Counted from the stretch's first letter, positions 14,084-51,845 are shown. The stretch: 64,000 bases of DNA from Candidatus Shapirobacteria bacterium (GCA_041661765.1 JBAZTV010000003.1:1064-65063), one strand, 5' to 3'. Notes: generated from the sequence alone by a model not told the origin. A program made the numbers and translations.

Positions 14084-16135
14084 ATGATCAATCTTGATTC
14101 TCCCGAATTAAAAAATATTTCTCCCGAAAAATTGGGTGAACTTCTAATCGAAGCCAAAAAAGCTTACTACACCGACAGCAAGCCCATCATGGATGATCAC
14201 ACCTACGATATTCTCGAAGACATATTGCGAAAAATTAATCCTTATCATCGGATTTTTACTAAAATCGGCAGTTCCCATTTCAATAGCGGTTTTGACAAAA
14301 AAAAGCATTCCATGCCCATGGGCTCCCAAAACAAAGTCAATAAAATCGACGATCTCGTTCACTATTTTGAATTAAAGAAAGTTTTACCCCTCCTTGTCAA
14401 AGGAGGGGATAGGGGTGGATTGGTCGTTCAACCAAAATGTGACGGCATTTCCTTAGAAATTGAATATAAAAATGGTAAATTAGTTGATGCTATCACTCGC
14501 GGCGACGGCGAAATAGGAGATGTTATCACCCAAAATGTTGTCAAAATGAAAAATTTTGTCCAAGAATTCAAGGACAATTTTTCCGGCTCAGTCCGTTGCG
14601 AAATCGTAATGCTCGAAAAAGATTTTCAAAAATTAAATGAAATAATAAAAAACCGCCCTATCTCGGCCACAGGCCGATCCGCCTCTGGCGGAAAGGGAGG
14701 TGTCCCCGCCACAGCGGGGACGGAGGGTTTCTACAGTAACTCTCGCAATGCCGTCTCTGGTATCTCACAGCGCCTTGACGGCAAATTTTCTGAACTCTGT
14801 AGTCTTTATGCTGTCGACATTTATAGCCTCCCTGTCAAGGGAGGTGCCCAAAGGGCGGAGGGTTTCAAAACCGAACAAGAAAAAATTGATTTTCTAAAAC
14901 ATCATGGCTTCACTACTGTTGAAGATCTTCATTGTCAAAATTTTGACCAAATCGAAAAAATCTACCAAGAATTTTTAATTAAAAAAAGAAAAAATTATCC
15001 TTTTGAAATCGACGGTCTCGTCATTAAAATTAACGATACTGAAATACAACATCGTCTAGGTTCTAAAAATAATCGTCCCAAAGGTCAAGTGGCCTACAAA
15101 TTTCCATCTCGCTCCAGTCAAACGAGAATTATTAATATCAATTGGCAAGTTGGTCCAATGGGAACAATTACTCCTGTCGCCGAAGTCGATCCCATCGAAA
15201 TTTCCGGCGCCATCATTACCTTTGCCTCGCTGGCCAATTACGATTTAATCAAAGAAAAAAATATTAATATTAATGACATCGTTGAAATTCAAAGAAGAGG
15301 AGATGTTATCCCTCACATTGAAAACGTCATTACCAAAATTAATCCCGGCCACATCGTCGCTCCCACAGTTTGTCCTTCTTGTGGCACCAAATTAATCATC
15401 GATAATAAATTTTTGCGCTGTCCTAATATTAAAAATTGTCCTACTCAAATTCTCGGTTCTCTTAAATTATTTTGTAGCACTTTAGAAATTAAAGGTATCT
15501 CCGAAAAAACCATCGACAAACTTTATAAAGAAAAATTAATTCGCCTTCCGGGTGATTTTTATGACCTAAAAGTTTCCTATTTTGAAAAACTTTTTGGCCT
15601 TGGCCACAAATCGGGGACCAATATCATTAAAGAAATCCAAAATAAAAGAAAACTATCATTAAAACAAATTTTTGACGCCGCAATTATTCCCAACTTTAGT
15701 TCTCAACGAATTGTTCAACTGATTAATGCTGGTTTCGATACTCCTGAAAAAATTTTAAATATCACCATCGATCAGCTCGAAGCACTTCCCGGAATTCAAA
15801 TTACTTTGGCTAAAAAAATCTATCAAGGCATCCAAGACCGCCGCGATTTTATTATATCCATTCTTGCTCATGTAGAGACGCCCCGCCGGGACGTCTCTAC
15901 ATCAAACAAACTAAACAACCTATCTTTTGCCATCACCGGCGCTCTTAATAAACCCAGAAAAGAAATTGAAGATCAAATCATTTCTCTCGGTGGTCAATTA
16001 GTTTCCTCTATTTCTAAAAATACTAACTATTTGATTACTAACGAAACCGAATCCAATTCCAGTAAATTTTTAAACGCTAAAAAATTTGGAACCAAAATAA
16101 TTTCTGAATCTGATTTTGAATTATTAGCAGTCTAG
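14084..16135 (+). CDS. ligA: NAD-dependent DNA ligase LigA carrying three in-frame repeat-element insertions
   Basis: KxDG adenylation motif (KCDGISLE), Zn finger C..C...C..C, HhH and BRCT regions; insertions SATGRSASGGKGGVPATAGTEGF, PVKGGAQRAEGF and HVETPRRDVSTS. Confidence 0.85.
   Translation: MINLDSPELKNISPEKLGELLIEAKKAYYTDSKPIMDDHTYDILEDILRKINPYHRIFTKIGSSHFNSGFDKKKHSMPMGSQNKVNKIDDLVHYFELKKVLPLLVKGGDRGGLVVQPKCDGISLEIEYKNGKLVDAITRGDGEIGDVITQNVVKMKNFVQEFKDNFSGSVRCEIVMLEKDFQKLNEIIKNRPISATGRSASGGKGGVPATAGTEGFYSNSRNAVSGISQRLDGKFSELCSLYAVDIYSLPVKGGAQRAEGFKTEQEKIDFLKHHGFTTVEDLHCQNFDQIEKIYQEFLIKKRKNYPFEIDGLVIKINDTEIQHRLGSKNNRPKGQVAYKFPSRSSQTRIININWQVGPMGTITPVAEVDPIEISGAIITFASLANYDLIKEKNININDIVEIQRRGDVIPHIENVITKINPGHIVAPTVCPSCGTKLIIDNKFLRCPNIKNCPTQILGSLKLFCSTLEIKGISEKTIDKLYKEKLIRLPGDFYDLKVSYFEKLFGLGHKSGTNIIKEIQNKRKLSLKQIFDAAIIPNFSSQRIVQLINAGFDTPEKILNITIDQLEALPGIQITLAKKIYQGIQDRRDFIISILAHVETPRRDVSTSNKLNNLSFAITGALNKPRKEIEDQIISLGGQLVSSISKNTNYLITNETESNSSKFLNAKKFGTKIISESDFELLAV
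14661..14730 (+). repeat. G-rich element copy R6, long form with two hairpins (CCGCCtctGGCGG and GTCCCCGC-caca-GCGGGGAC), in frame in ligA
   Basis: Its 5' extension is homologous to R9 with a compensatory stem change. Confidence 0.75.
14827..14865 (+). repeat. G-rich element copy R7 (CCTCCCTgtcaAGGGAGGTGCCCaaaGGGCGGAGGGTTT), in frame in ligA
   Basis: Near-identical to R8. Confidence 0.75.
15872..15900 (+). repeat. REP-like palindrome GTAGAGACG-ccccgccggga-CGTCTCTAC, in frame in ligA
   Basis: 9-bp stem with GTAG/CTAC termini. Confidence 0.8.
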
Positions 16136-16150: not shown

Positions 16151-16250
16151 TATAAGCCTGGTTTTTACTTTTTCCTATCTTTAGGTATAAATAAGTATCA
16201 ATATATATCTAAATACTATATATATACTATTATATATATCAATTTATCAA

Positions 16251-28565: not shown

Positions 28566-28642
28566 AGTAGGGCATTTTTTAAAAAATAATTTTATACAAT
28601 TTTATACAAAAATTTATCCTAAAGATAGGAATAATTTGCTTG

Positions 28643-30621
<1,979 letters not shown>

Positions 30622-30634
30622 GGGAGAAAAAAAT

Positions 30635-33283
30635 ATGGCTAGTAATATAGAAGATAAAATCCAAAACAAAACTCCATTTAATATTGGTAAGATTCTTGAT
30701 GTCGATCTTGTTCCTGAAATGGAAAAATCTTACCTCGATTATTCAATGAGTGTTATCGTTCAACGCGCTCTTCCAGACGTTCGGGACGGCATGAAACCGG
30801 TTCATCGTCGCATTATTTACGCCATGAATCAAGCCGGCATGACTCCCAGCAGTAAAAATGTAAAATCAGCCGCTGTTGTCGGTGATGTTTTAAAATCTTA
30901 TCATCCACACGGCGACATGTCTGTCTACATGGCTCTCGTTCGTATGGCCCAAGAATTTTCCCTTAGATATCCTCTGATCAAAGGTCAAGGAAACTTTGGT
31001 TCAATCGACGGCGATCCTCCAGCCGCCATGCGTTACACTGAAGTTAAAATGGATAAACTAACTGCTGAAATGGTCACTGACATCAATAAAAATACTGTCG
31101 AGATGATGCCAAACTACGACGCCTCAACTGAAGAGCCAACTGTTCTTCCAGCTAGAATTCCCAATCTTTTATTAAACGGTGCCGACGGTATTGCTGTTGG
31201 TATGGCCACTCGCATTCCACCTCATAATTTAAAGGAATTATGCCAGGCCATTGATTTTATTTTAGACAAAAGTCGTCTTGAAAGAATCGAATCCGAAGTT
31301 GAAATAAATAATCTTTTAATTCAACCCAAAACCACCATTGATTTAGTTTTAAAACCAATTTACGAACTAGAAAAAGAACATTTTAATTTTGAAACCAGTG
31401 CCACTGTCGAAGATTTAACTAAATTTGTTCAAGGCCCAGATTTTCCTACCTCAGGAGAAATTTACGGAAAAACCGGCATTCTTGAAATGTATGCCACTGG
31501 CCGTGGTAAATTTATTGTTCGCGGTAAAACCAATATAGAAGAAACCAAATCTGGTCGAATTAGAATCATTATTACTGAATTACCTTACCAAGTAAATAAG
31601 GCCGAATTTGTCAAAAAAATTGCTGATTTAGTTCGTGACAAAAAAATAATTGGCATCTCTGATCTTCGCGACGAATCCGATCGTCATGGTATTAGAGTTG
31701 TGGTTGAAATTAAAAAAATCGGCAGACCAAAGTCAGTTTTAAACAAACTCTTTAAATATACCGCTCTTCAATCATCTTATTCAGCCAATATGTTGGCTCT
31801 GGTTGACGGTGTTCCTCAAACTCTCAACTTACGTCAAATGTTACTTCTTTTCCTTCGACATCGAGAAACAGTTATTCGTCGTCGCACCATTTTTGATCTC
31901 AAAGGCATGATGATGCGTTCTCATATTCTCGAAGGTCTTAAAAAAGCACTCGATATCATCGACGAAATTATTAAAACCATTCGTGCTTCAAAAAGTACTG
32001 ATGAAGCTCGAGAAAATTTAATAACCAAATTTGAATTTACAGATCTTCAAGCCAATGCTATTCTTGAAATGCAACTTCGTAAACTCGCCGCCCTCGAACG
32101 TCAAAAACTCGAAGAAGAATTAAAGAATGTATTAGAGACAATCAATGAATTAACCGCAATCATCACCAAACCAGAAATTATGGTTGCTGTTCTAAAAAAA
32201 GAAAACAGTGAAATTATTGAAAAATATGGAGATGTTCGAAAAACTAAAATATTTGTTCGAGGTCTAGACGATTTTAGTGAAGAAGATTTAATTCCAAACG
32301 AAGCCGTTCTTATCGCTCTTACTAAAACAGGTTATATTAAACGAGTTGCCAAAGAAACCTATCATACTCAAAAACGCGGTGGTGTCGGTGTCGTTGGTAT
32401 GACCACTAAAAATGAAGACGAAATTGAATGTATGCTTTCCGTTGACACCCACGATGATCTCTTATTTTTCACCAACCGCGGTCGAGTTTTTAAAACCAAA
32501 GTTTGGGATGTTCAAGAAGGTAGTCGACAAGCCAAAGGTCAGGCAGTCGTCAATTTAATTAATACTATTCAAGGTGAAACTGTTCAAACAATTCTTCCTA
32601 TTAGTAAAAATACTAAAGCTAAGTTTATTTTACTTGCCACAAAAAATGGAGTTGTCAAAAAGACTTCTATTGATAAATTTAAAAATATTCGTCAAACCGG
32701 TTTAGCCGCCATCAAACTCGATCTCAATGATCAACTTACTTGGGCTAAACTAACCGAAGGTGATAACCAAATATTTTTAGTTACTAAAAATGGTAAATGT
32801 ATTCGTTTTGATGAAAGAGATTGTCGACCAATGGGTCGTCAAACTCGAGGTGTTCGAGGCATTCTTCTTAAAGAAGGTGACACCCTAGTTGGTATGGCTG
32901 TTGTCCCCAGTGTTATTGATAAAAAAGAAAAGGGGATTTTTAAACACCTTCTAGTTGTCACTGAAAATGGTGTCGGTAAAAGAACTGATGTCTATCTCTA
33001 CCCTTCCCAAAAACGAGGTGGTATCGGCATTAAAGTTGCCAATCTCAGTGTTAAATCCGGTAAAATCGCCGCCGCTCAAGTCGTTTCTGAAGTTGATGAA
33101 TTAGTTGTTCTTGTTTCCAAAAAAGCTATAACCATCAAACTACCATTAAAAAATATTCCCACCCTTAGTCGTAACACTAAAGGAGTTATCCTTATGCGTT
33201 TCAAATCCACCGATGACAAGCTAAATGCCATGACTATTATTGACAAAAATGATTCCGCCGTGGAAGACGAAAAAATCAAATAA
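30635..33283 (+). CDS. gyrA: DNA gyrase subunit A
   Basis: AMRYTEVKM active-site Tyr region; GyrA-box-like QKRGGVG in the C-terminal beta-pinwheel. Confidence 0.9.
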
Positions 33284-33298
33284 AATAAAATCTATTTG

Positions 33299-33332
33299 GT
33301 AGAGACGGTCCGAAATTTCGGACCGTCTCTAC
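33299..33332 (+). repeat. REP-like perfect 34-nt palindrome GTAGAGACGGTCCGAAATTTCGGACCGTCTCTAC, intergenic after gyrA (probably also a terminator)
   Basis: 17-bp perfect stem with GTAG/CTAC termini. Confidence 0.8.
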
Positions 33333-33541
33333 ATATTTTATTAATACTATAAGACATACACATTTAATAAGCACACATTAGCAGATAATATAAATAATTG
33401 CTAATACACCCCATATTTCTATTTTTGGCCTAAATTAGGGATAAATTCAACACTACTAAAGATAAACCGAATGAAAACAGTGCAGGGGAGTGATTTTTAT
33501 AAAAATGGCCTCACTATAGGGTATTAATATTACATGTGATC

Positions 33542-34480
33542 TTATTTATTACCACTATGAAATTTCTCATGAACTTCTCTTAATCTAGCATCTGTCACAT
33601 GGGTGTAAATTTGAGTCGTAGCAATATTTTTATGTCCCAAAAGTTCTTGGACTGATCTCAAATCCGCTCCAGATCGAAGCAGGTCAGTCGCCATTGAATG
33701 TCTTAAAGTATGAGGCGTCGCATCAACCGGTAAATTCGCCGTTTTTACATAATGCTTCACCAATCTTTGCACCGATCTAACCGTCAATCTAACTTTTTCT
33801 TCACTCGCTGGAATTTCATTTGGCCGCAAGACTCTACTAAACAGGGGTTTATATTTGTCCTCTCGACTCATTAAATATTTTGCGACATAATCAGCTGCTT
33901 GCCTAGAAATAAAAACCACTCTCGCTCGTCCACCTTTTCCAATCACTCCAAACTCTCTGGTTTTTAAATTAATTTGGTCACGATTCAAATGAACCAATTC
34001 CGAAACCCGCAATCCAGTTGAAAACAAAAGTTCTAAAATTGCTCTGTCTCTAAAACCATTTTTACTAGAGGGGATTGGCTGCACTAAAAGTCTCTCCATC
34101 TGTTGAGCATCTAAAAATTTTAATGAATGATCTTTAACTTTCGGCACATCCAATTTTTCTGGTTGAAGCACTTTGTAATCATTTTTAATCAACCATTTCA
34201 AAAATGACCTCAGGGCAATCACATAATAACCTTGCGTCACCAATTTCATTTCTCCCACAGTTCCCTTCTGTCTGGCCAAAAACAATCTAAACCTTCTCAC
34301 CATATCCGAAGTTATATCATTAATTGTATTTTTTTCATTTTCCTTTTTTCCTTCTGATAAAAACTTTGTCAAGACTTCTAAATAATGCTGATAATTTCTA
34401 ATCGTCAATCTTGAACAATTTTTTTCAATTTCCAGATGCTCTAAAAATCGCCTAATCAAAATATTCAAATCATTTTCCAT
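33542..34480 (-). CDS. Tyrosine site-specific recombinase (XerC/XerD family)
   Basis: C-terminal R..HxxR..Y catalytic signature (HTLRHSMAT...LGH...TQIYTHV). Confidence 0.8.
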   Translation of the reverse strand: MENDLNILIRRFLEHLEIEKNCSRLTIRNYQHYLEVLTKFLSEGKKENEKNTINDITSDMVRRFRLFLARQKGTVGEMKLVTQGYYVIALRSFLKWLIKNDYKVLQPEKLDVPKVKDHSLKFLDAQQMERLLVQPIPSSKNGFRDRAILELLFSTGLRVSELVHLNRDQINLKTREFGVIGKGGRARVVFISRQAADYVAKYLMSREDKYKPLFSRVLRPNEIPASEEKVRLTVRSVQRLVKHYVKTANLPVDATPHTLRHSMATDLLRSGADLRSVQELLGHKNIATTQIYTHVTDARLREVHEKFHSGNK

Positions 34481-35322
34481 AAACTATCTTATCATGATAC
34501 CAATTAAGAGGTAAAAGTAATCAGAAAATTTTTAATCTTCATTTCTAGGGGCTCTGGTGACGTCTTAGGTTCATTTTGCCTATCTTTAGGCACAATTATC
34601 AAAATCTCCTCTTTAAAATAGTACAGGGGAGTCAATCACCAAATTTTAAACCCAAAGACCATCTATAAAGCAGGCAAGTCAAATAGGGAATTTGTTTATT
34701 AATTAATTATTAAAAATAAATAAATAAAAGCATGATCCAAATAAAAGAAAAAATAAAAATTTTGAAAAAGACAAAAAACAGCACTCCCCCTACCTAACTC
34801 TTTAGTTAATGTCGCAAAAGATACATTGTGCGACATAGCATATTTAGCCACCTTCTGCTAGGAGATAGGAATAAAAACTCTTTTCCCTCTCTTAGTTATT
34901 TATTAATTAATAATTAATTCTCCATTATTAATTAATTGATAAATAACTCTTACTCCTCCCTCTTGGGCAGTCCTTTTTGATACATTCGGTAAAAAATAGG
35001 TTTTCCACATAGACTATATCACACTATATCACCTGCTCCGTGAAAACTATAGTATATTTCGTGAAAATATTATAGGATGTTTTATATTATAGGACTCCCC
35101 TCCGCCCTGCCCACCTGTTCTTAAAAAAAATTAAAAAACTATAAACTTTAAATTAAAATACCCGTTTTTTTAACCTAACTCTGGTTTTTTTATAGATTAA
35201 AAAAATAGTTCATTGCCTATCATCTACAATTTAAAAATTAATTCTAAACTCCCCTGTTTTAAGAACAAAAAACCATCAAATTATACCTATCTTTCCATTA
35301 AAAATAAATATAAAGTCGCTCT
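34481..35322. other. ~850-bp ORF-free AT-rich region with iteron-like direct repeats (ctatatcac x2, cgtgaaaaNta x2, tattatagg x2), inverted repeats (34897-34952; ATGTCGCA-N12-TGCGACAT at 34817-34844) and three CAGGGGAGT motifs; candidate replication origin, Xer/dif-like site or element boundary
   Basis: Read directly; none of the six-frame ORFs explains it (the one 79-aa ORF there has no support). Confidence 0.4.
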
Positions 35323-35384
35323 GTCTCAGCCAAAGGCTGATCGGCCTCTGGCCGAAAGGGAGGTGCCCGCATGGCGGAGGGTTT
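35323..35384 (+). repeat. G-rich element copy R9, long form (CGGCCtctGGCCG hairpin plus AAGGGAGGTGCCCgcatGGCGGAGGGTTTT), abutting the stop of the ABC exporter gene
   Basis: Homologous to R6 over ~60 nt. Confidence 0.75.
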
Positions 35385-37144
35385 TATTTTATAAACCCAC
35401 CCACTTGTATATTCCAAAGCCTTTTATAAACACCTTTTTCTTGTTTAATTAATTTTTCATGAATTCCTTCCTCAACAATCTTTTTATTATCTATAACTAC
35501 AATTCTATCCGCTTTTTTAATAGTAGATAATCTATGAGCAATTATAATCACCGTTTTATTTTTCATTAACGCATCCAATGATTCTTGTATAAATCTTTCT
35601 GATTCCGAATCTAAACTTGAAGTAGCCTCATCTAAAACCAATATTGGTGCGTTTCTTAAAATTGCCCTAGCAATAGCCACTCTTTGACGTTCACCACCAG
35701 AAAGCTTGATTCCTCTTTCCCCAACAAAAGTATCGTAACCAAAATGCAATTTACTTATAAATTCATCACAATGTGCCAATTTAGCCGCCCTAATTACTTC
35801 TTCATCAGTCGCATCAAACTTACCATATCGAATATTTTCCATCAAACTCCTGTGAAATAATATCGGATCTTGCGGCACTAAACTAATATTGTTTCTTAAA
35901 CTCTCTTGAGTAACCTGTGAAATATCCTGACCGTCAATCAATATTTTCCCTTTTTGTATTTCAAACATCCTTAATAATAATTTAGTTAGTGTCGTCTTTC
36001 CTGCACCAGATGTTCCTATCAATGCCACAGTTTCTTTTGCCTTAATTTCTAAACTAAAATCATCAATAATACTTTCGTCTTCTTCATAAGCAAAACCAAC
36101 ATTATTAAAATTTATTTTTCCAAACTTAACTTTCAAATCACTAGCATTTTTTGTATCAACAATTTCATGTGGAATATTCAAAATAACTGTCATCTCCTCA
36201 GCTTCAGCCAATTTTTCATATATCTTCATAATTATTTTACCAAAATCCCAAACCATCGACATCACAAATATAATATAAGTTTGTATTAATACAAAATCAC
36301 CAACAGTTATAACATCTCTACTCCAAAGTTTAATTGCAAAATAAAATATTCCTACTTCTAAAAACACCAGTAAAAGTGATTGTAAACCATAAAATCCTGA
36401 ACCTAACTCCCAAGCAAACACTCTCACTTTATGTAAATTATCTGCCAAATTAGAAAAACTATTGTTTTCCTTTTTATATCCGTTAAATAACTTTATATTA
36501 GCATTATTAGTTACCGTATCAGCCAAAAAACTACTTGTAGCCGTTTCTGCTTCACTTCTCTGAATATCAAATTTTAATTTATATTTAGTAAAAATCCAAT
36601 TAATTAATAAGAATAATATTATCCAAACCAATATTCCCAACCCCAAATAAATATTAATCTTAGCCAAAACAATAATAATAATTGATATTTTTATAAACGA
36701 TGGTAGTAACTGATAAAAAAATTGATCTGCTAGAACTTCAAAAGCACCAATAAAACTTTTAACTTTTTTAACAATAGAACCAGTAAAACTATTAGAAAAA
36801 TAAGCAAAAGAATGATAATGTAAATAAGAAAAGCATTCCTTGCTTAAATCTGTCATGATTTTTGACTCATAGAAATTTAAAATGAAGAATGCAACTCGCC
36901 AAAAAAACCACTTAAGTAATTTCAATACTGATATCACTAACAAAATCGAAAACAAACTTACGGTTAAAATATCTTTAGGCTGGTTTTCAGTTAAAACATT
37001 AAAAAAATTCTTAAAATATATAGGAATTATTGACTCTAATACTGAACCAGTAATAATTAAAAAACACAAACTAAAACTGAGCAATTTATAATTACCCATA
37101 TTCTTTAAATAATACTTAACTGTTTTTTTAGTGTTATCTTTCAT
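35384..37144 (-). CDS. ABC exporter, fused permease/ATPase (MsbA-like)
   Basis: 6-TM N-domain; Walker A GTSGAGKTT; LSGGERQRVAIARA; Walker B LVLDEATS. Confidence 0.85.
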   Translation of the reverse strand: MKDNTKKTVKYYLKNMGNYKLLSFSLCFLIITGSVLESIIPIYFKNFFNVLTENQPKDILTVSLFSILLVISVLKLLKWFFWRVAFFILNFYESKIMTDLSKECFSYLHYHSFAYFSNSFTGSIVKKVKSFIGAFEVLADQFFYQLLPSFIKISIIIIVLAKINIYLGLGILVWIILFLLINWIFTKYKLKFDIQRSEAETATSSFLADTVTNNANIKLFNGYKKENNSFSNLADNLHKVRVFAWELGSGFYGLQSLLLVFLEVGIFYFAIKLWSRDVITVGDFVLIQTYIIFVMSMVWDFGKIIMKIYEKLAEAEEMTVILNIPHEIVDTKNASDLKVKFGKINFNNVGFAYEEDESIIDDFSLEIKAKETVALIGTSGAGKTTLTKLLLRMFEIQKGKILIDGQDISQVTQESLRNNISLVPQDPILFHRSLMENIRYGKFDATDEEVIRAAKLAHCDEFISKLHFGYDTFVGERGIKLSGGERQRVAIARAILRNAPILVLDEATSSLDSESERFIQESLDALMKNKTVIIIAHRLSTIKKADRIVVIDNKKIVEEGIHEKLIKQEKGVYKRLWNIQVGGFIK

Positions 37145-41552: not shown

Positions 41553-41635
41553 GTACCGAAGGAGGGACTTGAACCCCCATGATATTGCTATCACACGATT
41601 TTGAGTCGTGCGTGTCTACCATTCCACCACTCCGG
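41553..41635 (-). tRNA. tRNA-Leu (anticodon CAA), type II with long variable arm
   Basis: Manual cloverleaf on the reverse complement: acceptor GCCGGAG, anticodon stem CACGA/UCGUG with loop CUCAAAA, 16-nt variable arm, T-arm GGGGG-UUCAAGU-CCCUC. Confidence 0.75.
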
Positions 41636-41681
41636 CTTGAAAGTAAATCTATTATCTCACAACCAAAGCTATTTTTTAAGT

Positions 41682-41700
41682 TGTAGAGACCCCCTGTGGG
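41682..41700 (+). repeat. Partial REP (GTAGAGAC + CCCCtgtGGGG hairpin) at the 3' end of the RAYT gene
   Basis: Shares the GTAGAGAC head with the other REPs. Confidence 0.5.
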
Positions 41701-41916
41701 GCAATTTATAAAATTTATCTTTTTGCCAATTAATAGGATTATTGATTATATAATTTTTGATCATTAATAGTTCTTTTTCATCTTTAATGATTTGATCGTG
41801 GAAACGAGGTTGCCAAGCAAACCAAAGATTTTGATGGTTACAAATTGATTTTACTGAAGCTTTAAATAATTTTATAACTCTAGGAATAATCTGATTGGAT
41901 TTAATATTAATTTTTT

Positions 41917-41942
41917 GTAGAGACGCATTGAATGCGTCTCTT
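41917..41942 (+). repeat. REP-like palindrome GTAGAGACGCATT-ga-AATGCGTCTCT inside the RAYT gene
   Basis: 11-bp perfect stem, GTAG head. Confidence 0.8.
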
Positions 41943-41994
41943 GTATTATTATTTGTATTTTGTGTTGAATTATTGTTTGTATCCTGTGTTAGAC

Positions 41995-42019
41995 AGAGAC
42001 GCACACAGTGCGTCTCTAC
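41995..42019 (-). repeat. REP-like palindrome AGAGACGCAC-aca-GTGCGTCTCTAC (GTAG head on the minus strand), inverted relative to 41917; the two form a BIME-like doublet
   Basis: 10-bp perfect stem, CTAC tail on plus. Confidence 0.8.
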
Positions 42020-42350
42020 ATTTGTGTTAAGTGGTTGGTTTTTAATTTGAATTAATATATGCACATGGTTTGGCATAATTACCCATTCATGTAATTTAAT
42101 ATTTTTTCTTATTTTAAATGTTTTTAATAATTCAGATTTAGTAAAAATCACCACGTTTAGATAATTTCATTTTATTATCAATAATTTTTCCAAAAAAATT
42201 ATTATGGTTGTAAGTGCAGATGGTGATGAAATAATATCCAGGGGTGGAATAATTCCAATTTTGAAGACGAGAATATTTTAATTTAAATTTGTCGGCAAAT
42301 TTGGTTGGATTATCGACCACACATTATTGTAACAATTTTTACAAAATAAA

Positions 42351-46262: not shown

Positions 46263-48356
46263 ATGAATTTAAATAAAATTTTTTATCCAAAATCAATTGC
46301 CATAATTGGAGCATCAACTCGAGAAGGAACTGTGGGTAATGATATTGTTAAGAATTTAGTTAATCAAAAATTTACAGGTAAAATTTATCCGATTAATCCA
46401 AAAACAGATACTCTTTATAATTTAGCGTGTTATCCAAGCGTAGGTCATATTGATGATGAAATTGATTTGGCGATCGTAGTAGTGCCAGCGATAATAGTAC
46501 CTGAAATGATGCAGGAAATTGCTAATAAAAATATTAAAGGAGTAATCATCATTTCAGCTGGTTTTAAAGAAATGGGGAGAATTGATTTAGAAAATAAAGT
46601 TAAAGAAATTTGTTTTAAAAATGATATTACTTTAATTGGTCCTAATTGTTTAGGAGTAATTAATCCAGAAATAAAAATGAATTCATCTTTTGCAATGTCC
46701 ATGCCAAATACGGGGAATTTAGCATTTTTGTCACAAAGCGGAGCCTTATGTACTGCAGTTTTAGATTGTGCTCAATCTTTAGGGATTGGTTTTTCAAAAT
46801 TTATTAGTGTAGGCAACAAAGCCTGCGTTGATGAGGTTGATTTTTTGGAATATTTTAGTGAAGACCAAAATACAAAAGTGATTGCCATTTATGCAGAACA
46901 ATTAACAAGAGCACAAGAATTAATTAAATCAGTTTTAAAATTAGCTAAAGAAAAACAAAAACCAATAATTTTAGTTAAAGCGGGTAAGACTAATGATGGA
47001 GCCAATGCTTCGGCTTCTCATACTGGAGCTTTAGGTGGTAGTGATGCAGCATATGAGGCCTTATTTAAACAAAGTGGCATTATCAGAGCTGAAAGTGTAT
47101 CTGAATTCTTTGATTTTATTCAAGTATTTACTAATAACCCCCTACCCCAAGGAAATAGGGTGGCAATTGTGACTAACGCTGGAGGTCCGGGAGTTTTAGC
47201 TACTGATGAGGCAATATTAAATAATTTAGTTTTGGTAAAATTAAGTGAAGAAACAAAAAATAATTTAAAGCAAAATTTACCGGAAGCAGCTAATGTAAAT
47301 AATCCAATAGACGTATTAGGTGATGCAAAGGCTGATAGATACAGAGCGGCAATGGAAACAGTAATTAAAGATGAAAAAGTGGATAGTGTAGTAGTAATTT
47401 TAACACCTCAATCAACGACTGAAATTGAAGCTACGGCTCAAATGTTGATCGAAACCAAAAAACAAAATAATAAACCCATTGTGGCTTGTTTTATGGGAGA
47501 AACAACTGTAATAAAAGCAGTGGAGATGATGAGAACAAATGGAATTAGTGTAATTAGTTTTCCAGAACAAGCAATAAAATCTTTAGCAGCACTAACTAAA
47601 TTTGCTGAAATTACTAGAGAAAATGAAATTGAACAATTTGAAAAAATAGATGTTGATAAACAAAAGGTAATAGAAATTTTTAATGAAGCACGTAGTCAAA
47701 ATATAACTAAATTTCCAGAAGCTCAAGCCTTGAAAATTTTAGAAGCGTATAAATTCCCTCTTTTAAAGAATAAAGTGGCTACCAATGCCAATGAAGCTAG
47801 TGAAATTGCTAAAGATTTTGGAACTAATTTGGCTATGAAAATAGTTTCTCAAGATATTTTACATAAAAGTGATATAGGTGGAGTGATACTGGATATTAAA
47901 GTAGAAGAGGCCGGAATTAAGTTTACTGAAATGGTAGAAAAAATTAAAACTAAATTACCAAATGCCAAAATTGAAGGTGTACTTTTAATGGAAATGGCGC
48001 CAAAAAATGGAGTTGAATTAATTTTAGGAGCAAAAAAAGACCCCGCTTTAGGACAAACGATAATGGTTGGTTTGGGGGGAATTTATGTGGAAGTGTTTAA
48101 AGATATAACTTTTGGAATTGTACCGATTAATAAAACTGATGCTAAAAAAATGATCGATAGTATTAAAGTTAAAAAATTATTTGAGGGAGTTCGAGGTGGA
48201 GTTGCGCTAGATGTTGAAGTATTAATCGAAACTTTAGGCCGATTATCCAAATTACTTTCAGATTTTCCAGAAATTGAAGAATTAGATATTAATCCCCTGT
48301 TGATATTACCACAAGGACAGGGAGTTAAAGTTTTGGACGCCAGAATTTTAATATGA
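46263..48356 (+). CDS. ADP-forming acetyl-CoA synthetase / NDP-forming acyl-CoA synthetase (alpha-beta fusion)
   Basis: N-terminal CoA-binding domain (IAIIGAS...G), succinyl-CoA-synthetase-like flavodoxin domain, C-terminal ATP-grasp; 697 aa. Confidence 0.65.
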   Translation: MNLNKIFYPKSIAIIGASTREGTVGNDIVKNLVNQKFTGKIYPINPKTDTLYNLACYPSVGHIDDEIDLAIVVVPAIIVPEMMQEIANKNIKGVIIISAGFKEMGRIDLENKVKEICFKNDITLIGPNCLGVINPEIKMNSSFAMSMPNTGNLAFLSQSGALCTAVLDCAQSLGIGFSKFISVGNKACVDEVDFLEYFSEDQNTKVIAIYAEQLTRAQELIKSVLKLAKEKQKPIILVKAGKTNDGANASASHTGALGGSDAAYEALFKQSGIIRAESVSEFFDFIQVFTNNPLPQGNRVAIVTNAGGPGVLATDEAILNNLVLVKLSEETKNNLKQNLPEAANVNNPIDVLGDAKADRYRAAMETVIKDEKVDSVVVILTPQSTTEIEATAQMLIETKKQNNKPIVACFMGETTVIKAVEMMRTNGISVISFPEQAIKSLAALTKFAEITRENEIEQFEKIDVDKQKVIEIFNEARSQNITKFPEAQALKILEAYKFPLLKNKVATNANEASEIAKDFGTNLAMKIVSQDILHKSDIGGVILDIKVEEAGIKFTEMVEKIKTKLPNAKIEGVLLMEMAPKNGVELILGAKKDPALGQTIMVGLGGIYVEVFKDITFGIVPINKTDAKKMIDSIKVKKLFEGVRGGVALDVEVLIETLGRLSKLLSDFPEIEELDINPLLILPQGQGVKVLDARILI

Positions 48357-51209: not shown

Positions 51210-51249
51210 GCCGCCCTGTCAAGGGAGGTGCCCGAAGGGCGGAGGGTTT
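51210..51249 (+). repeat. G-rich element copy R8 (CCGCCCTgtcaAGGGAGGTGCCCgaaGGGCGGAGGGTTT) between hisS and the HAD gene; its GGAGGG tail sits 5 nt before the HAD ATG, so it may act as an RBS
   Basis: Near-identical to R7. Confidence 0.75.
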
Positions 51250-51251
51250 AT

Positions 51252-51845
51252 ATGATAAAAGTAATAATCTTTGACGTCGGTGGAGTTTATCTAAAAGGTA
51301 GTTTTATTGATTTTATAAACAAATCGCGAAAACTGCTTGGCATTGATAAAAAATTTTACACCGACAAAGAAATAATTTTTGATAAAGATTTTAATCGAGG
51401 AAAAATTTCAGCCGAAATTTGTTTTCAAAATTATTTTAGTGTTCCTATTTCTGATTCTCAAATGAAACAAATTATCAAAATCTGGACCACCACTTGGAAA
51501 CCAACTCTCTCAATGAAAAATTTAATTATCAAATTAAAGAAGAATTATCGATTAGCCATTCTTTCAAATTCTGATCCTCTCAATTCACCTAATTATTATA
51601 AAAAAGGTTTGTATCAATATTTTGATCCAATAATTTTATCCCATGAATTGGGAATTTTAAAACCAGATAAGAAAATTTATGAAATTACTATTAAAAAACT
51701 AAAAGTTAAATCAAATGAATGTATTTTTATTGATGATCAAGAAGATAATTTAAAACCAGCCAAAGATATGGGTATGACCACAATTTTATTCAAATCTCCT
51801 CTTCAATTAAAACAAGATTTAAAAAAACTTTTTATTAAACTTTAA
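51252..51845 (+). CDS. HAD-superfamily hydrolase (start at ATG 51252; the ORF-track N-extension is element-derived)
   Basis: Motif I IIFDVGGV; motif IV DD near the C-terminus. Confidence 0.65.
   Translation: MIKVIIFDVGGVYLKGSFIDFINKSRKLLGIDKKFYTDKEIIFDKDFNRGKISAEICFQNYFSVPISDSQMKQIIKIWTTTWKPTLSMKNLIIKLKKNYRLAILSNSDPLNSPNYYKKGLYQYFDPIILSHELGILKPDKKIYEITIKKLKVKSNECIFIDDQEDNLKPAKDMGMTTILFKSPLQLKQDLKKLFIKL

What the first reader, a model, noticed from the sequence alone, without database searches (positions are those of the whole stretch)
33333..35322. Tyrosine recombinase gene flanked by ORF-free, iteron-rich DNA with repeated CAGGGGAGT motifs
About 200 bp downstream and about 850 bp upstream of the xerC/D-like gene are non-coding and AT-rich. 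There are tandem direct repeats at 35010-35092 (ctatatcac x2, cgtgaaaaNta x2, tattatagg x2). A near-perfect inverted repeat, GTTATTTATTAATTAAT...ATTAATTAATTGATAAATAAC, lies at 34897-34952. A hairpin ATGTCGCA-N12-TGCGACAT lies at 34817-34844. The 9-mer CAGGGGAGT occurs three times: 33483, 34622, and inverted at 35249. Possible interpretations are a dif-like or Xer-dependent integrative element boundary, a plasmid-derived or chromosomal origin with iterons, or an unannotated structured RNA.
Basis: seen in the sequence. Interest (0 to 1): 0.6.

Follow-up and report, generated by a model that had tools for sequence, protein, structure and literature searches.

The report
dif site beside its Xer gene
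The "hairpin" upstream of the recombinase gene is most likely the chromosome's dif site, where the adjacent Xer recombinase separates fused sister chromosomes, and it lies in a genome with no GC-skew turning point, so it gives a first landmark for finding where replication starts and ends in these bacteria.

Summary
The window is from a Candidatus Shapirobacteria genome (Microgenomates, CPR).

- **Not a mobile element.** The xer gene (33542-34480, minus strand) is a core gene in conserved synteny in about 45 species.
- **The hairpin is a dif site.** It is a 28-bp, 11+6+11 site at 34809-34836 (ATGTCGCACAA TGTATC TTTTGCGACAT). It is nearly invariant, single-copy and co-oriented with xer in 73 of 81 species loci. 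Filamentous-phage-like contigs carry the same core.
- **Other motifs.** GGGGAGT boxes are conserved and point towards dif. The direct repeats at 35001-35094 are a conserved array that includes a DnaA-box consensus; its function is unknown. The AT-rich palindrome is lineage-specific.
- **Not RNA.** No Rfam match and no covariation.
- **No skew inflection, but this does not refute dif.** One strand is strongly C-rich across all 64 kb (fourfold-site skew -0.6 to -0.8). This matches the monotonic skew published for other Microgenomates, where origin and terminus were proposed to be adjacent.

An origin next to dif is not excluded (about 0.25).

The parts
33542..34480 (-). xer: a 312-aa Xer-family tyrosine recombinase. 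It is the only one in the window and is a core chromosomal gene.
   Evidence: Pfam Phage_integrase 3.7e-42 plus SAM-like N-domain. NCBIfam XerC 242.7, XerD 239.1 and XerA 215.8 bits, all below the equivalog cut-offs. Best solved relative is E. coli XerD 1a0p, 1.3e-38, with the conserved active-site stretches aligned (GLRVSEL, GKG, H-x-LRH, LLGH, IYTHV). phmmer finds no second copy in the window. Orthologues at 50-95% identity in 80 species, most of them in conserved synteny.
34809..34836 (-). dif-type Xer core site. On the minus strand it reads ATGTCGCACAA (arm, 34836-34826), TGTATC (6-bp central region, 34825-34820), TTTTGCGACAT (arm, 34819-34809).
   Evidence: Unique in the 64 kb at up to 6 mismatches. 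Found in 73 of 81 species loci in the same orientation relative to xer. Positions 3-12 and 17-26 are nearly invariant; positions 1-2, 27-28 and the inner 4 bp of the central region vary. Positions 3 and 26 covary G-C/T-A in 48 of 48 distinct sites. 20 of 28 identical to the Thiobacillus denitrificans dif listed in PMC2731167, and the same conservation pattern as described there. The exact core is carried by Zot-encoding inovirus-like contigs.
35001..35094 (-). Conserved array of short repeats, about 165-285 bp from dif. It contains TCCTATAAT x2, TTTTCACG x2 (21 bp apart), GATATAGT x2 (10 bp apart) and a DnaA-box-like 9-mer (TTTTCCACA on the plus strand, 35001-35009; a perfect TTATCCACA in many relatives). 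Function unknown.
   Evidence: Coordinates. Conservation profile and alignment. Constant offsets from dif in Shapirobacteria and presence in Woesebacteria-like genomes. The TCCTATAAT copies change number and orientation between lineages, which fits protein sites rather than RNA. Within 450 bp of dif in 95 Microgenomates loci, TTTTCAC points towards dif 152 times and away 11 times.
34977..34985 (-). AATGTATCA: a degenerate inverted third copy of the GATATAG motif (CTATATCA in most relatives).
   Evidence: Alignment. GATATAGT on the opposite strand at about -150 to -163 from dif in many loci.
35094..35103 (-). G-rich box GGAGGGGAGT upstream of the repeat array, pointing towards dif.
   Evidence: Conserved as GGGGAGT or GGGAAGT at -255 to -286 from dif in most Shapirobacteria.
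35248..35256 (-). CAGGGGAGT box, pointing towards dif.
   Evidence: GGGGAGT at about -396 to -429 from dif in about 20 relatives.
34783..34790 (-). G-rich box GGGGGAGT, 19 bp beyond the dif arm. It is the one box that points away from dif.
   Evidence: GGGGAG is nearly invariant at +47 from the dif start. It is complementary to the box at 34624-34635, but that 6-bp pairing has essentially no covariation.
34739..34780 (-). T-tract region at the start of the AT-rich spacer (about 34640-34780). Many relatives have four tandem heptamers (ATTTNNA) here.
   Evidence: Alignment A1, columns 44-78. The segment +60 to +195 from dif is about 10 points more AT-rich than the flanking genes in most loci.
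34624..34635 (+). CAGGGGAGTCAA (TTGACTCCCCTG on the xer strand): a G-rich box pointing back towards dif. It is duplicated in tandem in some relatives.
   Evidence: Conserved at about +200 from dif.
34548..34592 (-). Probable xer promoter/operator block: the palindrome TGCCTAAAGATAGGCA (34577-34592) and the conserved box GACGTCACCAGAGCCCC (34548-34564).
   Evidence: Conservation. CCTAAAGATAGG occurs exactly three times in the window, the others upstream of gyrB (28618) and pth (16174). Present 74-143 bp upstream of xer in 27 of 45 Shapirobacteria loci.
33483..33491 (+). CAGGGGAGT box about 50 bp beyond the xer stop, pointing towards dif.
   Evidence: GGGGAGT on that strand at about +1325 to +1350 from dif in about 20 relatives.
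34894..34948 (.). AT-rich near-palindrome between the repeat array and dif. Real, but specific to this lineage and probably not functional.
   Evidence: 25-nt arms, 88%. The best inverted-repeat arm in this interval is 16 nt here against 4-11 nt in the Shapirobacteria relatives, with one distant locus (L078) at 15. Poorly conserved columns.
33299..33332 (.). Perfect 17+17 palindrome: a bidirectional terminator between the convergent gyrA and xer genes.

Best explanation
The region is the chromosome dimer resolution module of a Shapirobacteria genome: a housekeeping Xer recombinase gene and its cognate 28-bp dif site 328 bp upstream.

Shown:
- xer is a core, syntenic gene, not an element integrase.
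- The 'hairpin' at 34809-34836 is an 11+6+11 site resembling canonical dif.
- It is conserved far more strongly than anything around it, is single-copy where it can be seen, and keeps a fixed orientation relative to xer.
- The same core is carried by filamentous-phage-like contigs, the class of element known to integrate at dif through host Xer proteins.

Inferred mechanism:
- Because both arms are almost identical (GTCGCACAA and GTCGCAAAA), and the protein scores equally as XerC, XerD and XerA, one recombinase probably binds both arms.
- Four subunits would synapse the two dif copies of a dimeric chromosome. Strands would be exchanged at the edges of the 6-bp central region, giving two monomers.

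The other flagged features:
- The GGGGAGT boxes are conserved and, with one exception, point towards dif from both sides. My reading, at about 0.35, is that they are KOPS-like signals that load or orient an FtsK-type translocase towards dif.
- The direct repeats at 35001-35094 are a conserved, phased array of protein-binding-type sites on one side of dif. Their role is not established. Candidates are accessory or architectural sequences (as in cer and psi), a promoter/operator cluster, or origin or fork-arrest functions.
- The block at 34548-34592 is probably the xer promoter/operator.
- The site is not at a GC-skew switch because these genomes have same-sign strand asymmetry on both sides of it.
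For: Gene:
- Xer family membership and aligned active-site motifs.
- Only one copy in the window.
- Synteny in about 45 Shapirobacteria species, and partly in other Microgenomates.

Site:
- 11+6+11 architecture, as defined for dif (PMC5357621).
- 73 of 81 species loci carry it, giving 48 distinct 28-mers. Inner arms are invariant; outer ends and the central 4 bp vary between lineages. This is the pattern reported for proteobacterial dif.
- 20 of 28 identical to a listed beta-proteobacterial dif.
- It stays in the same noncoding module upstream of xer even where another gene lies between it and xer (L003, L005, L007 and Woesebacteria-like loci).
- A recombinase gene linked to its site is the known arrangement for XerS/difSL and XerH/difH.

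Use in nature:
- 34 IMG/VR contigs carry the exact core. Two of the four contigs I scanned encode a Zot-like protein; none has Microgenomates synteny genes, and one (L086) has a weak Xer-like match.
- Four of them have a second site 5.3-5.9 kb away, in direct orientation, sharing the left arm and central region only.
- In long chromosomal contigs the site abuts homologues of a roughly 300-aa protein of those contigs, or a G2P-type Rep.

G-boxes:
- CAGGGGAGT 4 against 0.14 expected, all four pointing towards dif. GGGGAGT 7 of 8 towards dif.
- Conserved offsets. Towards:away counts of 45:1 for GGGAGTC and 92:27 for GGGGAGT in 95 loci.
- Polarity of G runs flips at dif although the fourfold-site skew does not.

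Skew context: and PMC7143001.
Against: - No GC-skew switch within 30 kb either side, whereas known dif sites track the skew shift point (PMC3025954). This is explained, but not proven, by lineage-wide same-sign asymmetry. Whole-genome skew for this organism could not be examined.
- Single copy per genome, absence of a second Xer paralogue and presence of FtsK could not be tested, because only 64 kb plus 13-kb loci were readable.
- The hosts of the phage-like contigs are unknown, their central region (ATAT) differs from the GTAT of Shapirobacteria, and the integrated state was not resolved.
- The G-box at +47 points the wrong way for a pure KOPS model. The counts across species are phylogenetically non-independent, and in the window the related GGGAAGT shows no polarity switch.
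- There is no biochemical evidence of any kind.
Confidence: 0.8

Rival explanations
1. Origin/terminus junction. This reading is compatible with dif being real. The repeat array (DnaA box, phased TTTTCAC, GATATAGT and TCCTATAAT sites), together with the AT-rich heptamer tract bracketed by GC-rich boxes, would be the replication origin or a polar fork barrier. Replication would run essentially one way round the chromosome and end next to where it began, which places dif beside the origin.
For: - Same-sign, very strong strand asymmetry on both sides of the site. In the window, fourfold-site skew on the plus strand is -0.59 to -0.80 for genes of both orientations. Pooled over Shapirobacteria loci, the strand component is +0.62 left and +0.52 right of the site; in Woesebacteria-like loci it is +0.17 and +0.11.
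- Monotonic whole-genome skew, and an explicit 'origin and terminus close together / unidirectional theta' hypothesis, are published for related Microgenomates, with no origin or dif identified (PMC7143001).
- If dif marks the terminus, as it does elsewhere, and there is no skew switch, then the origin should be close by.
- Conserved perfect TTATCCACA in many species at -165 to -190, iteron-like phased repeats and a conserved AT-rich tract with tandem heptamers.
- gyrB, gyrA, dnaB, holB, ligA and dnaX all lie within the window.
Against: - Only one DnaA-box consensus, and no enrichment of DnaA boxes in the window (25 against 22.8 expected).
- No dnaA or dnaN in the window or in the 80 genome loci.
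- No DnaA-trio pattern by eye.
- dif lies between the box and the AT-rich tract.
- Genes do not diverge from the site.
- Whole-genome monotonic skew has not been shown for this organism; a mid-replichore position would give the same local picture.
Confidence: 0.25
2. The repeat array is a promoter/operator cluster. It would drive xer, the accessory gene inserted in some strains, or a transcript crossing dif, and would have no direct role in recombination or replication.
For: - TGATATAGT x2 fits an extended -10 element (TGnTATAAT) and TCCTATAAT x2 contains TATAAT, all on the xer strand. The promoter scan picks TGGGCA-16-TATAAT at 35113-35086.
- The repeated TTTTCAC and TATAGG half-sites look like operators.
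- A separate palindrome shared with the gyrB and pth upstream regions shows that regulator sites exist in this intergenic region.
Against: - The array is more than 500 bp from the xer start, with a second promoter-like block much nearer (34548-34602).
- It is retained where another gene separates it from xer.
- In the 2.3-kb region scanned, promoter-like matches are no more frequent than in shuffles (10 against 9.0).
- No expression data.
Confidence: 0.3
3. The 28-bp palindrome is an operator for a dimeric transcription factor, or an RNA or ssDNA hairpin, and not a recombination site.
For: - It is an inverted repeat upstream of a gene.
- The arm positions 3 and 26 covary, which a hairpin would also produce.
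Against: - The 12 'loop' nucleotides are as conserved as the stem.
- Positions 7 and 22 form C·A in 17 of 48 distinct sites, so it is a poor hairpin.
- An 11+6+11 layout with a lineage-variable central 4 bp is the signature of a tyrosine-recombinase core.
- The same core is on phage-like contigs and at phage/host junctions.
- It occurs at converging gene junctions, without xer, in other lineages.
Confidence: 0.05
4. xer is the integrase of an integrated mobile element, an IMEX or an integron-like cassette platform, and the non-coding DNA is its attachment region.
For: - Variable gene content next to the module. An ABC transporter, a PTA_PTB gene or nothing lies upstream of it. A 279-291 aa gene lies between it and xer in L003, L005 and L007.
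- Logan contigs break 2 nt beyond the site.
Against: - xer and both flanks are syntenic in about 45 species.
- There is one site per locus, with no flanking repeat.
- The integron-integrase model scores 101 bits against a cut-off of 265.
- The contig breaks are explained by the site being identical across co-occurring strains and species.
- No phage or plasmid genes are adjacent.
Confidence: 0.03
5. The 900-bp gap encodes a large structured non-coding RNA.
For: - A long ORF-free region of 650-1100 bp conserved in compact genomes.
- Conserved blocks.
- A possible long-range pairing GGGGGAGU/ACUCCCCU.
Against: - No Rfam match even at E up to 10.
- RNAalifold on 33 sequences finds only a 6-bp helix, with a covariation term of -0.15 kcal/mol.
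- Motifs change copy number and orientation between lineages.
- The conserved blocks are separated by unalignable AT-rich DNA.
Confidence: 0.05

Closest known systems
XerCD/dif of Proteobacteria and Firmicutes (E. coli dif, B. subtilis CodV-RipX/dif)
   Same: A 28-bp site with two 11-bp arms and a 6-bp central region. It is 20 of 28 identical to a listed beta-proteobacterial dif. It has the same conservation gradient: inner arms most conserved, outer ends variable, central region conserved within lineages but not between them. The recombinase is closest to XerD among solved structures.
   Different: Apparently one recombinase and nearly symmetric arms, instead of distinct XerC and XerD arms. 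The gene is linked to the site. The site is not at a GC-skew shift point.
XerS/difSL (streptococci, lactococci) and XerH/difH (Helicobacter, Campylobacter)
   Same: A single recombinase whose gene lies next to its site, forming one genetic module.
   Different: A different recombinase subfamily: the XerS model scores 134.6 bits against a cut-off of 267, and XerH in the PDB matches at only 2e-11. difSL is 31 bp with an 11-bp central region, and the difH arms are unrelated in sequence. Those sites lie at the terminus skew switch.
Archaeal XerA/dif
   Same: A single recombinase acting on a 28-bp, near-palindromic 11+6+11 site. The XerA model scores 215.8 bits, just below its cut-off of 220, and XerA structures are among the best matches. 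From memory (Duggin et al. 2011), Sulfolobus dif lies outside the fork-fusion zones, so a dif away from a skew switch has a precedent.
   Different: This is a bacterial lineage, the score is below the equivalog cut-off, and gene-site linkage with a conserved flanking array is not a described XerA feature.
KOPS / FtsK-orienting polar sequences (GGGNAGGG in E. coli; other G-rich purine motifs in Bacillus and Lactococcus, PMC3384302)
   Same: Short G-rich purine motifs whose orientation converges on dif from both sides.
   Different: The motif is GGGGAGT-like and clustered within about 1.4 kb of dif in non-coding DNA. One conserved copy points the wrong way. Genome-wide skew of the motif and the presence of FtsK are untested.
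Accessory sequences of the plasmid Xer sites cer and psi
   Same: A one-sided block of roughly 150-280 bp of protein-binding sites next to a Xer core site (for cer).
   Different: This is chromosomal, the binding proteins are unknown, the spacing to the core varies by about 20 bp between species, and no ArgR, PepA or ArcA-type sites were recognised.
IMEX elements (CTXphi, VGJphi, TLCphi) that integrate at dif
   Same: Small Zot-encoding contigs carry the exact core. Some have a second site sharing only one arm plus the central region, as expected after Xer-mediated integration.
   Different: These elements are not in the window and their hosts are unidentified. Their central region differs from that of Shapirobacteria.
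One-directional GC skew in Microgenomates (Ch65, Collierbacteria, Beckwithbacteria; Kadnikov et al. 2020)
   Same: A strong excess of C over G on one strand regardless of gene orientation.
   Different: That paper located no origin, terminus, dif or Xer. Here the asymmetry is documented only for 64 kb and for 13-kb loci in another order of the same class.

Membership tests
Xer/dif chromosome dimer resolution system | Xer-family tyrosine recombinase with the conserved catalytic residues | tested here: met
   Pfam and NCBIfam hits. The alignment to XerD 1a0p shows GLRVSEL, GKG, H-x-LRH, LLGH and IYTHV aligned.
Xer/dif chromosome dimer resolution system | Core site of two roughly 11-bp inverted arms around a 6-8 bp central region | tested here: met
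   ATGTCGCACAA TGTATC TTTTGCGACAT at 34809-34836. Definition.
Xer/dif chromosome dimer resolution system | Single occurrence per chromosome | tested here: inconclusive
   Unique in the 64-kb window and in the 13-kb loci, apart from one degenerate extra copy in L064. Whole genomes were not readable.
Xer/dif chromosome dimer resolution system | Location at the replication terminus / GC-skew shift point | tested here: not met
   No sign change within 30 kb either side, nor in about 60 relatives. The criterion may not apply, because related genomes have monotonic skew.
Xer/dif chromosome dimer resolution system | Recombination at the site by the cognate recombinase | not testable with these tools
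   Indirect evidence only: phage-like contigs carry the core, and hybrid second sites exist.
Xer/dif chromosome dimer resolution system | Polar FtsK-orienting motifs converging on the site | tested here: inconclusive
   GGGGAGT points towards dif in 7 of 8 copies in the window, and there is strong local polarity across loci. But numbers are small, the data are not independent, and one conserved copy is contrary. FtsK was not found in the DNA I could read.
XerS/difSL or XerH/difH single-recombinase modules | Recombinase gene adjacent to its site | tested here: met
   328 bp apart here. Within 0.3-1.6 kb in the loci that carry the site.
XerS/difSL or XerH/difH single-recombinase modules | Recombinase belongs to the XerS or XerH family, and the site has the difSL or difH layout | tested here: not met
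   XerS model 134.6 bits against a cut-off of 267. XerH in the PDB matches at 2e-11, against 1e-38 for XerD. The central region is 6 bp, not 11 bp.
Integrated mobile element / IMEX boundary | Integrase and cargo absent from relatives, bounded by two attachment sites | tested here: not met
   Conserved synteny in about 45 species and a single site.
Integron | IntI-type integrase with attI and attC cassettes | tested here: not met
   Integron integrase models score 101 and 70.9 bits against cut-offs of 265 and 435. There is no cassette array.
Bacterial oriC | Cluster of DnaA boxes next to an AT-rich unwinding element | tested here: inconclusive
   One conserved consensus box and an AT-rich tract. 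The other repeats are not DnaA boxes, and there is no enrichment in the window.
Bacterial oriC | Linkage to dnaA/dnaN and a cumulative GC-skew minimum | tested here: not met
   No dnaA or dnaN in the window or loci, and no skew extremum. Skew is uninformative if replication runs one way.
Iteron plasmid origin | Iterons next to a Rep initiator gene | tested here: not met
   No rep gene. The neighbours are gyrA, xer and an ABC transporter.
Known structured RNA families | Match to a covariance model, or covarying helices | tested here: not met
   Rfam gathering and E up to 10 both negative. RNAalifold covariation term -0.15.

The most novel reading that the evidence does not exclude
The 600-bp module is the origin/terminus junction of a chromosome that is replicated essentially in one direction. 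The conserved repeat array (DnaA box plus phased iteron-like sites), together with the GC-clamped AT-rich heptamer tract, would fire or arrest replication. dif and its recombinase gene would sit immediately beside it, because the chromosome finishes replicating where it started. This would supply the missing origin and terminus landmarks for the monotonic-skew Microgenomates genomes reported in 2020.
Probability: 0.25. Interest if true: 0.85.

Novelty: new variant of a known kind. Interest (0 to 1): 0.6.

Why it matters
I found no paper on dif or Xer in the Candidate Phyla Radiation. This module gives a searchable, highly conserved dif consensus, GTCG(C/T)ACAAT-N4-CTTTT(G/A)CGAC, for a large uncultured clade. 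It also suggests that filamentous-phage-like elements exploit that site.

More importantly, Microgenomates genomes with one strand uniformly C-rich have no skew-defined origin or terminus. The only published explanation I found is that the two lie close together (PMC7143001). A dif site is the best sequence-level marker of where chromosomes finish segregating, so its position turns that hypothesis into concrete tests:
- read-coverage profiles across this locus;
- the distance from dif to dnaA in closed genomes;
- DnaA or Xer binding to the adjacent conserved array.

If dif proves to be mid-chromosome in a normally replicating genome, that would itself be an exception to the rule that dif tracks the terminus.

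Tried and rejected
- **Known RNA families.** Rfam at gathering scores over the whole window, and at E up to 10 over 33200-35500, gave only three tRNAs elsewhere. The same search on 12 unrelated dif loci gave only one tRNA.
- **Structured leader RNA.** RNAalifold on 33 species gave one 6-bp helix with no covariation. The apparent GGGGAGT/ACTCCCC to GGGAAGT/ACTTCCC covariation dissolved once all copies were listed. The boxes are a repeated motif family with tandem duplications.
- **GC-skew inflection as a test of origin or terminus.** None was found. Fourfold-site analysis showed why the test cannot discriminate here.
- **DnaA-box cluster.** Not enriched. No DnaA, DnaN or FtsK signature motifs in the window or the 80 loci, and none in the Pfam annotation of 47 window ORFs.
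- **Mobile-element or integron reading.** Rejected on synteny and integrase scores.
- **Pseudogene remnant.** The gap is conserved as non-coding DNA in dozens of species, with no ORF.
- **A DnaA-like box as a general companion of dif.** In non-Microgenomates loci the TTATCCACA and G-rich block flanking the site turned out to belong to integrated phage-like DNA.
- **KOPS-type polarity over the whole window.** The numbers are too small and are confounded by gene orientation.
- **Logan contig breaks exactly at the site.** I considered these as evidence of rearrangement. They are better explained by the 31-mer being shared between co-occurring strains.
- **Resolving the integrated state of the phage-like contigs L107 and L112.** Left unresolved.
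- **Literature on Ch104b, or on follow-up work on unidirectional replication.** Nothing found.


Full report
**What is there**

The window has about 31% G+C. Around the finding it reads as follows:
- gyrB (28678-30621, plus strand) and gyrA (30635-33283, plus strand);
- a perfect 17+17 palindromic terminator (33299-33332);
- a 258-bp gap;
- a 312-aa tyrosine recombinase gene (33542-34480, minus strand);
- a 903-bp stretch with no ORF of 60 aa or more (34481-35383);
- an ABC transporter gene (35384-37144, minus strand).

The three pairs of direct repeats are unique to 35013-35094 in the whole window. The AT-rich inverted repeat has 25-nt arms at 34894-34918 and 34924-34948. CAGGGGAGT occurs four times against 0.14 expected. 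The 'hairpin' is at 34809-34836, eight bases from the stated position.

**Origin of the sequence, and the status of xer**

The exact protein is found on contigs from several samples that are identical to the window. A 97.6%-identical strain (L003) carries an extra 279-aa gene between the non-coding region and xer.

A scan of species-representative genomes returned 80 loci, the closest labelled Candidatus Shapirobacteria.
- In about 45 species the order PsiU-p287-YebC-DUF5656-[variable]-xer, followed on the opposite strand by gyrA-gyrB-SpoU-DsbA, is conserved. Looser versions persist in Woesebacteria-like and other Microgenomates genomes.
- xer is therefore a core chromosomal gene, not the integrase of an element.
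- It scores almost equally as XerC (242.7 bits), XerD (239.1) and archaeal XerA (215.8), all below the equivalog cut-offs.
- Its best solved relative is E. coli XerD, with the active-site motifs aligned.
- It is the only such gene in the window.

**The non-coding region is conserved, and its core is a dif site**

An ORF-free gap of 650-1100 bp lies immediately upstream of xer in most of the Shapirobacteria loci, whatever the upstream gene. BLAST and a 44-species alignment show conserved blocks separated by unalignable AT-rich DNA. By far the most conserved block is 34809-34836.

On the xer strand it reads ATGTCGCACAA TGTATC TTTTGCGACAT: two 11-bp arms and a 6-bp centre. This is the defining layout of dif (PMC5357621).
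- It occurs in the same orientation in 73 of 81 species loci, counting the window.
- Among 48 distinct versions, positions 3-12 and 17-26 are almost invariant. The outer two positions of each arm, and the inner four of the centre, vary between lineages.
- Positions 3 and 26 change together (G-C or T-A) in 48 of 48 versions.
- One asymmetry (C at position 9, T at position 20) is almost fixed (44 of 48 versions) and gives the site a polarity.
- This is the same pattern described for 161 proteobacterial dif sites. The sequence is 20 of 28 identical to the Thiobacillus denitrificans dif in that table (PMC2731167).
- The site stays in the same noncoding module upstream of xer even where another gene lies between them. 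That gene is a 279-291 aa gene in L003, L005 and L007, and an NT5C-like gene in Woesebacteria-like genomes.
- Linkage of a single recombinase gene to its site is already known for XerS/difSL and XerH/difH.

**Independent support from mobile elements**

Searching public collections for GTCGYACAAT-N4-CTTTTRCGAC gave two sets of hits.
- More than 120 metagenome contigs. About a third have Microgenomates synteny. The rest come from other lineages without an adjacent xer, often with genes converging on the site.
- 34 IMG/VR contigs. These are mostly 4-11 kb. None carries Microgenomates synteny genes, and one (L086) has a weak Xer-like match. Two of the four I scanned encode a Zot-like protein, the assembly ATPase of filamentous phages.

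Further details point to integration:
- Four of the viral contigs have a second site 5.3-5.9 kb away in direct orientation. It shares the left arm and centre but not the right arm.
- In long chromosomal contigs, including one of 830 kb, the site abuts a homologue of the roughly 300-aa protein of these elements, or a G2P-type rolling-circle Rep.
- Filamentous phages integrating at dif through host Xer proteins are the classic IMEX case.

I did not resolve the integrated structures or identify the hosts. This is supportive evidence, not proof.

**The repeated G-rich motif**

GGGGAGT boxes recur at fixed offsets from dif across species. On the xer strand they lie at about -420 and -265. On the opposite strand they lie at about +205 and about +1345, just beyond the xer stop.
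- All of these point towards dif. The exception is a nearly invariant box at +47.
- In the window, 7 of 8 GGGGAGT copies and 4 of 4 CAGGGGAGT copies point towards dif.
- Within 450 bp of dif in 95 Microgenomates loci, GGGAGTC is 45 towards and 1 away, and GGGGAGT is 92 towards and 27 away.
- Runs of G switch strand preference at dif even though neutral-site skew does not.

This is the arrangement of FtsK-orienting KOPS motifs. I hold that reading at about one in three. The numbers in one genome are small, the cross-species counts are not independent, GGGAAGT shows no switch in the window, and FtsK was not found in the DNA I could read.

**The direct repeats**

The segment 35001-35094 is a conserved array. 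In order it contains:
- a G-rich box;
- TCCTATAAT copies;
- two TTTTCAC sites 21-23 bp apart, with a TATAGG-type half-site between them;
- two GATATAGT sites 10 bp apart, plus an inverted third copy;
- TGTGGA(A/T)AA, which in many species is the exact complement of the DnaA-box consensus.

A recognisable version of the array, with the paired TTTTCAC sites, is present in most of the Woesebacteria-like loci examined. The TCCTATAAT copies change number and orientation between lineages. That argues for protein-binding sites and against RNA structure.

I cannot assign a function. The candidates are accessory or architectural sequences like those of cer and psi, a promoter/operator cluster (TGATATAGT fits an extended -10 element), or origin or fork-arrest functions.

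Nearer to xer, the palindrome CCTAAAGATAGG is shared exactly with the gyrB and pth upstream regions and is conserved upstream of xer in 27 of 45 species. It is probably part of the xer promoter/operator.

**What it is not**

- Rfam finds nothing.
- A 33-species consensus fold of the dif-to-xer segment gives one 6-bp helix with no covariation.
- Integron, iteron-plasmid and integrated-element readings each fail defining tests.

**GC skew**

There is none. But the reason is unusual.
- At fourfold-degenerate sites the plus strand has a G-C skew of -0.59 to -0.80. This holds for genes of both orientations and on both sides of the site, across all 64 kb.
- The same holds in every Shapirobacteria locus.
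- Pooled, the strand component is +0.62 left and +0.52 right of dif in Shapirobacteria. In Woesebacteria-like genomes it is +0.17 and +0.11.
- Kadnikov et al. (PMC7143001) reported a near-linear cumulative skew over whole closed Microgenomates chromosomes. They proposed that origin and terminus lie close together, or that replication is unidirectional. They identified neither origin nor terminus, and the paper never mentions dnaA or Xer.
- I found no later paper on this, and none on dif in the CPR.

Known dif sites track the skew shift point (PMC3025954). A dif with same-sign skew on both sides in about 60 species therefore has two possible explanations. Either dif is mid-replichore in this clade, or the terminus and the origin are both here.

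The second reading fits the conserved DnaA box, the iteron-like array and the AT-rich heptamer tract. Against it are the single DnaA box, the lack of DnaA-box enrichment and the absence of dnaA nearby. I put it at about 0.25. It does not compete with the dif assignment.

**Verdict**

The finding is a real, conserved chromosomal Xer-dif module. It is a new variant of a known system in an unstudied phylum. It comes with conserved flanking elements of unknown function, in a genomic context that makes the open question about replication in these bacteria directly testable.

Noticed in passing
window 1-64000: Extreme strand asymmetry. At fourfold-degenerate sites the plus strand has a G-C skew of -0.59 to -0.80 for genes of either orientation over the whole window. 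All Shapirobacteria loci show the same. This matches the whole-genome monotonic skew published for other Microgenomates (PMC7143001).
   Followed up: yes
window 46263-48356 (+): One gene, an ADP-forming acetyl-CoA synthetase-like protein with ATP-grasp_5 and CoA-binding domains, has the opposite skew: coding-strand fourfold skew +0.21, against about -0.8 for the other plus-strand genes. It lies next to tRNA-His and could be a recent acquisition or an inversion.
   Followed up: no
window 35302-35383; copies at 14640-14705 and 51221-51259: A GC-rich repeat element of about 65-80 nt in an AT-rich genome. The copy after the ABC transporter gene folds strongly (-38.6 kcal/mol, z -4.7). The copy at 14640-14705 lies inside the ligA ORF, which is reminiscent of palindromic elements that insert in frame.
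   Followed up: partly
window 28618-28629 (+), 34579-34590 (-), 16174-16185 (-): The palindrome CCTAAAGATAGG (CCTA-N4-TAGG) occurs exactly three times, upstream of gyrB, xer and pth. Counting copies with up to 2 mismatches gives 13 against 4.4 expected. It is conserved upstream of xer in 27 of 45 relatives and upstream of gyrB in 8 of 36. It may be a shared operator.
   Followed up: partly
L003 339-1236; L005 and L007 5107-5982 (corresponds to window about 34491-34501): Close relatives carry a 279-291 aa gene between the dif module and xer. It has no Pfam or NCBIfam match and contains a FGVFDGATG motif. In the window, 11 nt stand in its place.
   Followed up: partly
L085-L118 (IMG/VR contigs); L107 2195 and 7608; L112 2062 and 7494; L096; L114: Small inovirus-like contigs carry the exact dif core; two of the four scanned encode a Zot-like protein. 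Four contigs have a second hybrid site 5.3-5.9 kb away in direct orientation. The hosts and the integration state are unresolved.
   Followed up: partly
L188 4491-5819 (830-kb contig), L164, L161, L177, L154, L237, L232: In other lineages the site abuts a conserved region of about 400 bp (TTATCCACA, CCCCTACT, GAAC-N7-GAAC) and a roughly 300-aa gene homologous to one on the inovirus-like contigs. In L232 it abuts a G2P-type Rep. These are probably integrated or degraded elements at dif.
   Followed up: partly
L064 3832-3855: A second, degenerate site (GTCGTACAATCGCCCTTTTAAGAG) lies about 920 bp upstream of the true dif in direct orientation. It could be the footprint of a small integrated element.
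   Followed up: no
L054-L079, just after the second TTTTCAC: Woesebacteria-like arrays contain (A/T)3-4 GCGAC(A/G)(T/C), which resembles an isolated dif half-site, and a CCGAA-N5-6-CCGAA direct repeat. Neither is present in Shapirobacteria.
   Followed up: no
window 34739-34780 and alignment A1 columns 44-78: Directly after the G-box beside dif, many species have four tandem heptamers (for example ATTTTCA ATTTTCA ATTTACA ATTTTCA). In the window this is a looser series of T tracts.
   Followed up: partly
window 41669-42154 (-): A short ORF with a partial IS200-like Y1 transposase match lies next to tRNA-Leu (41553-41636).
   Followed up: no
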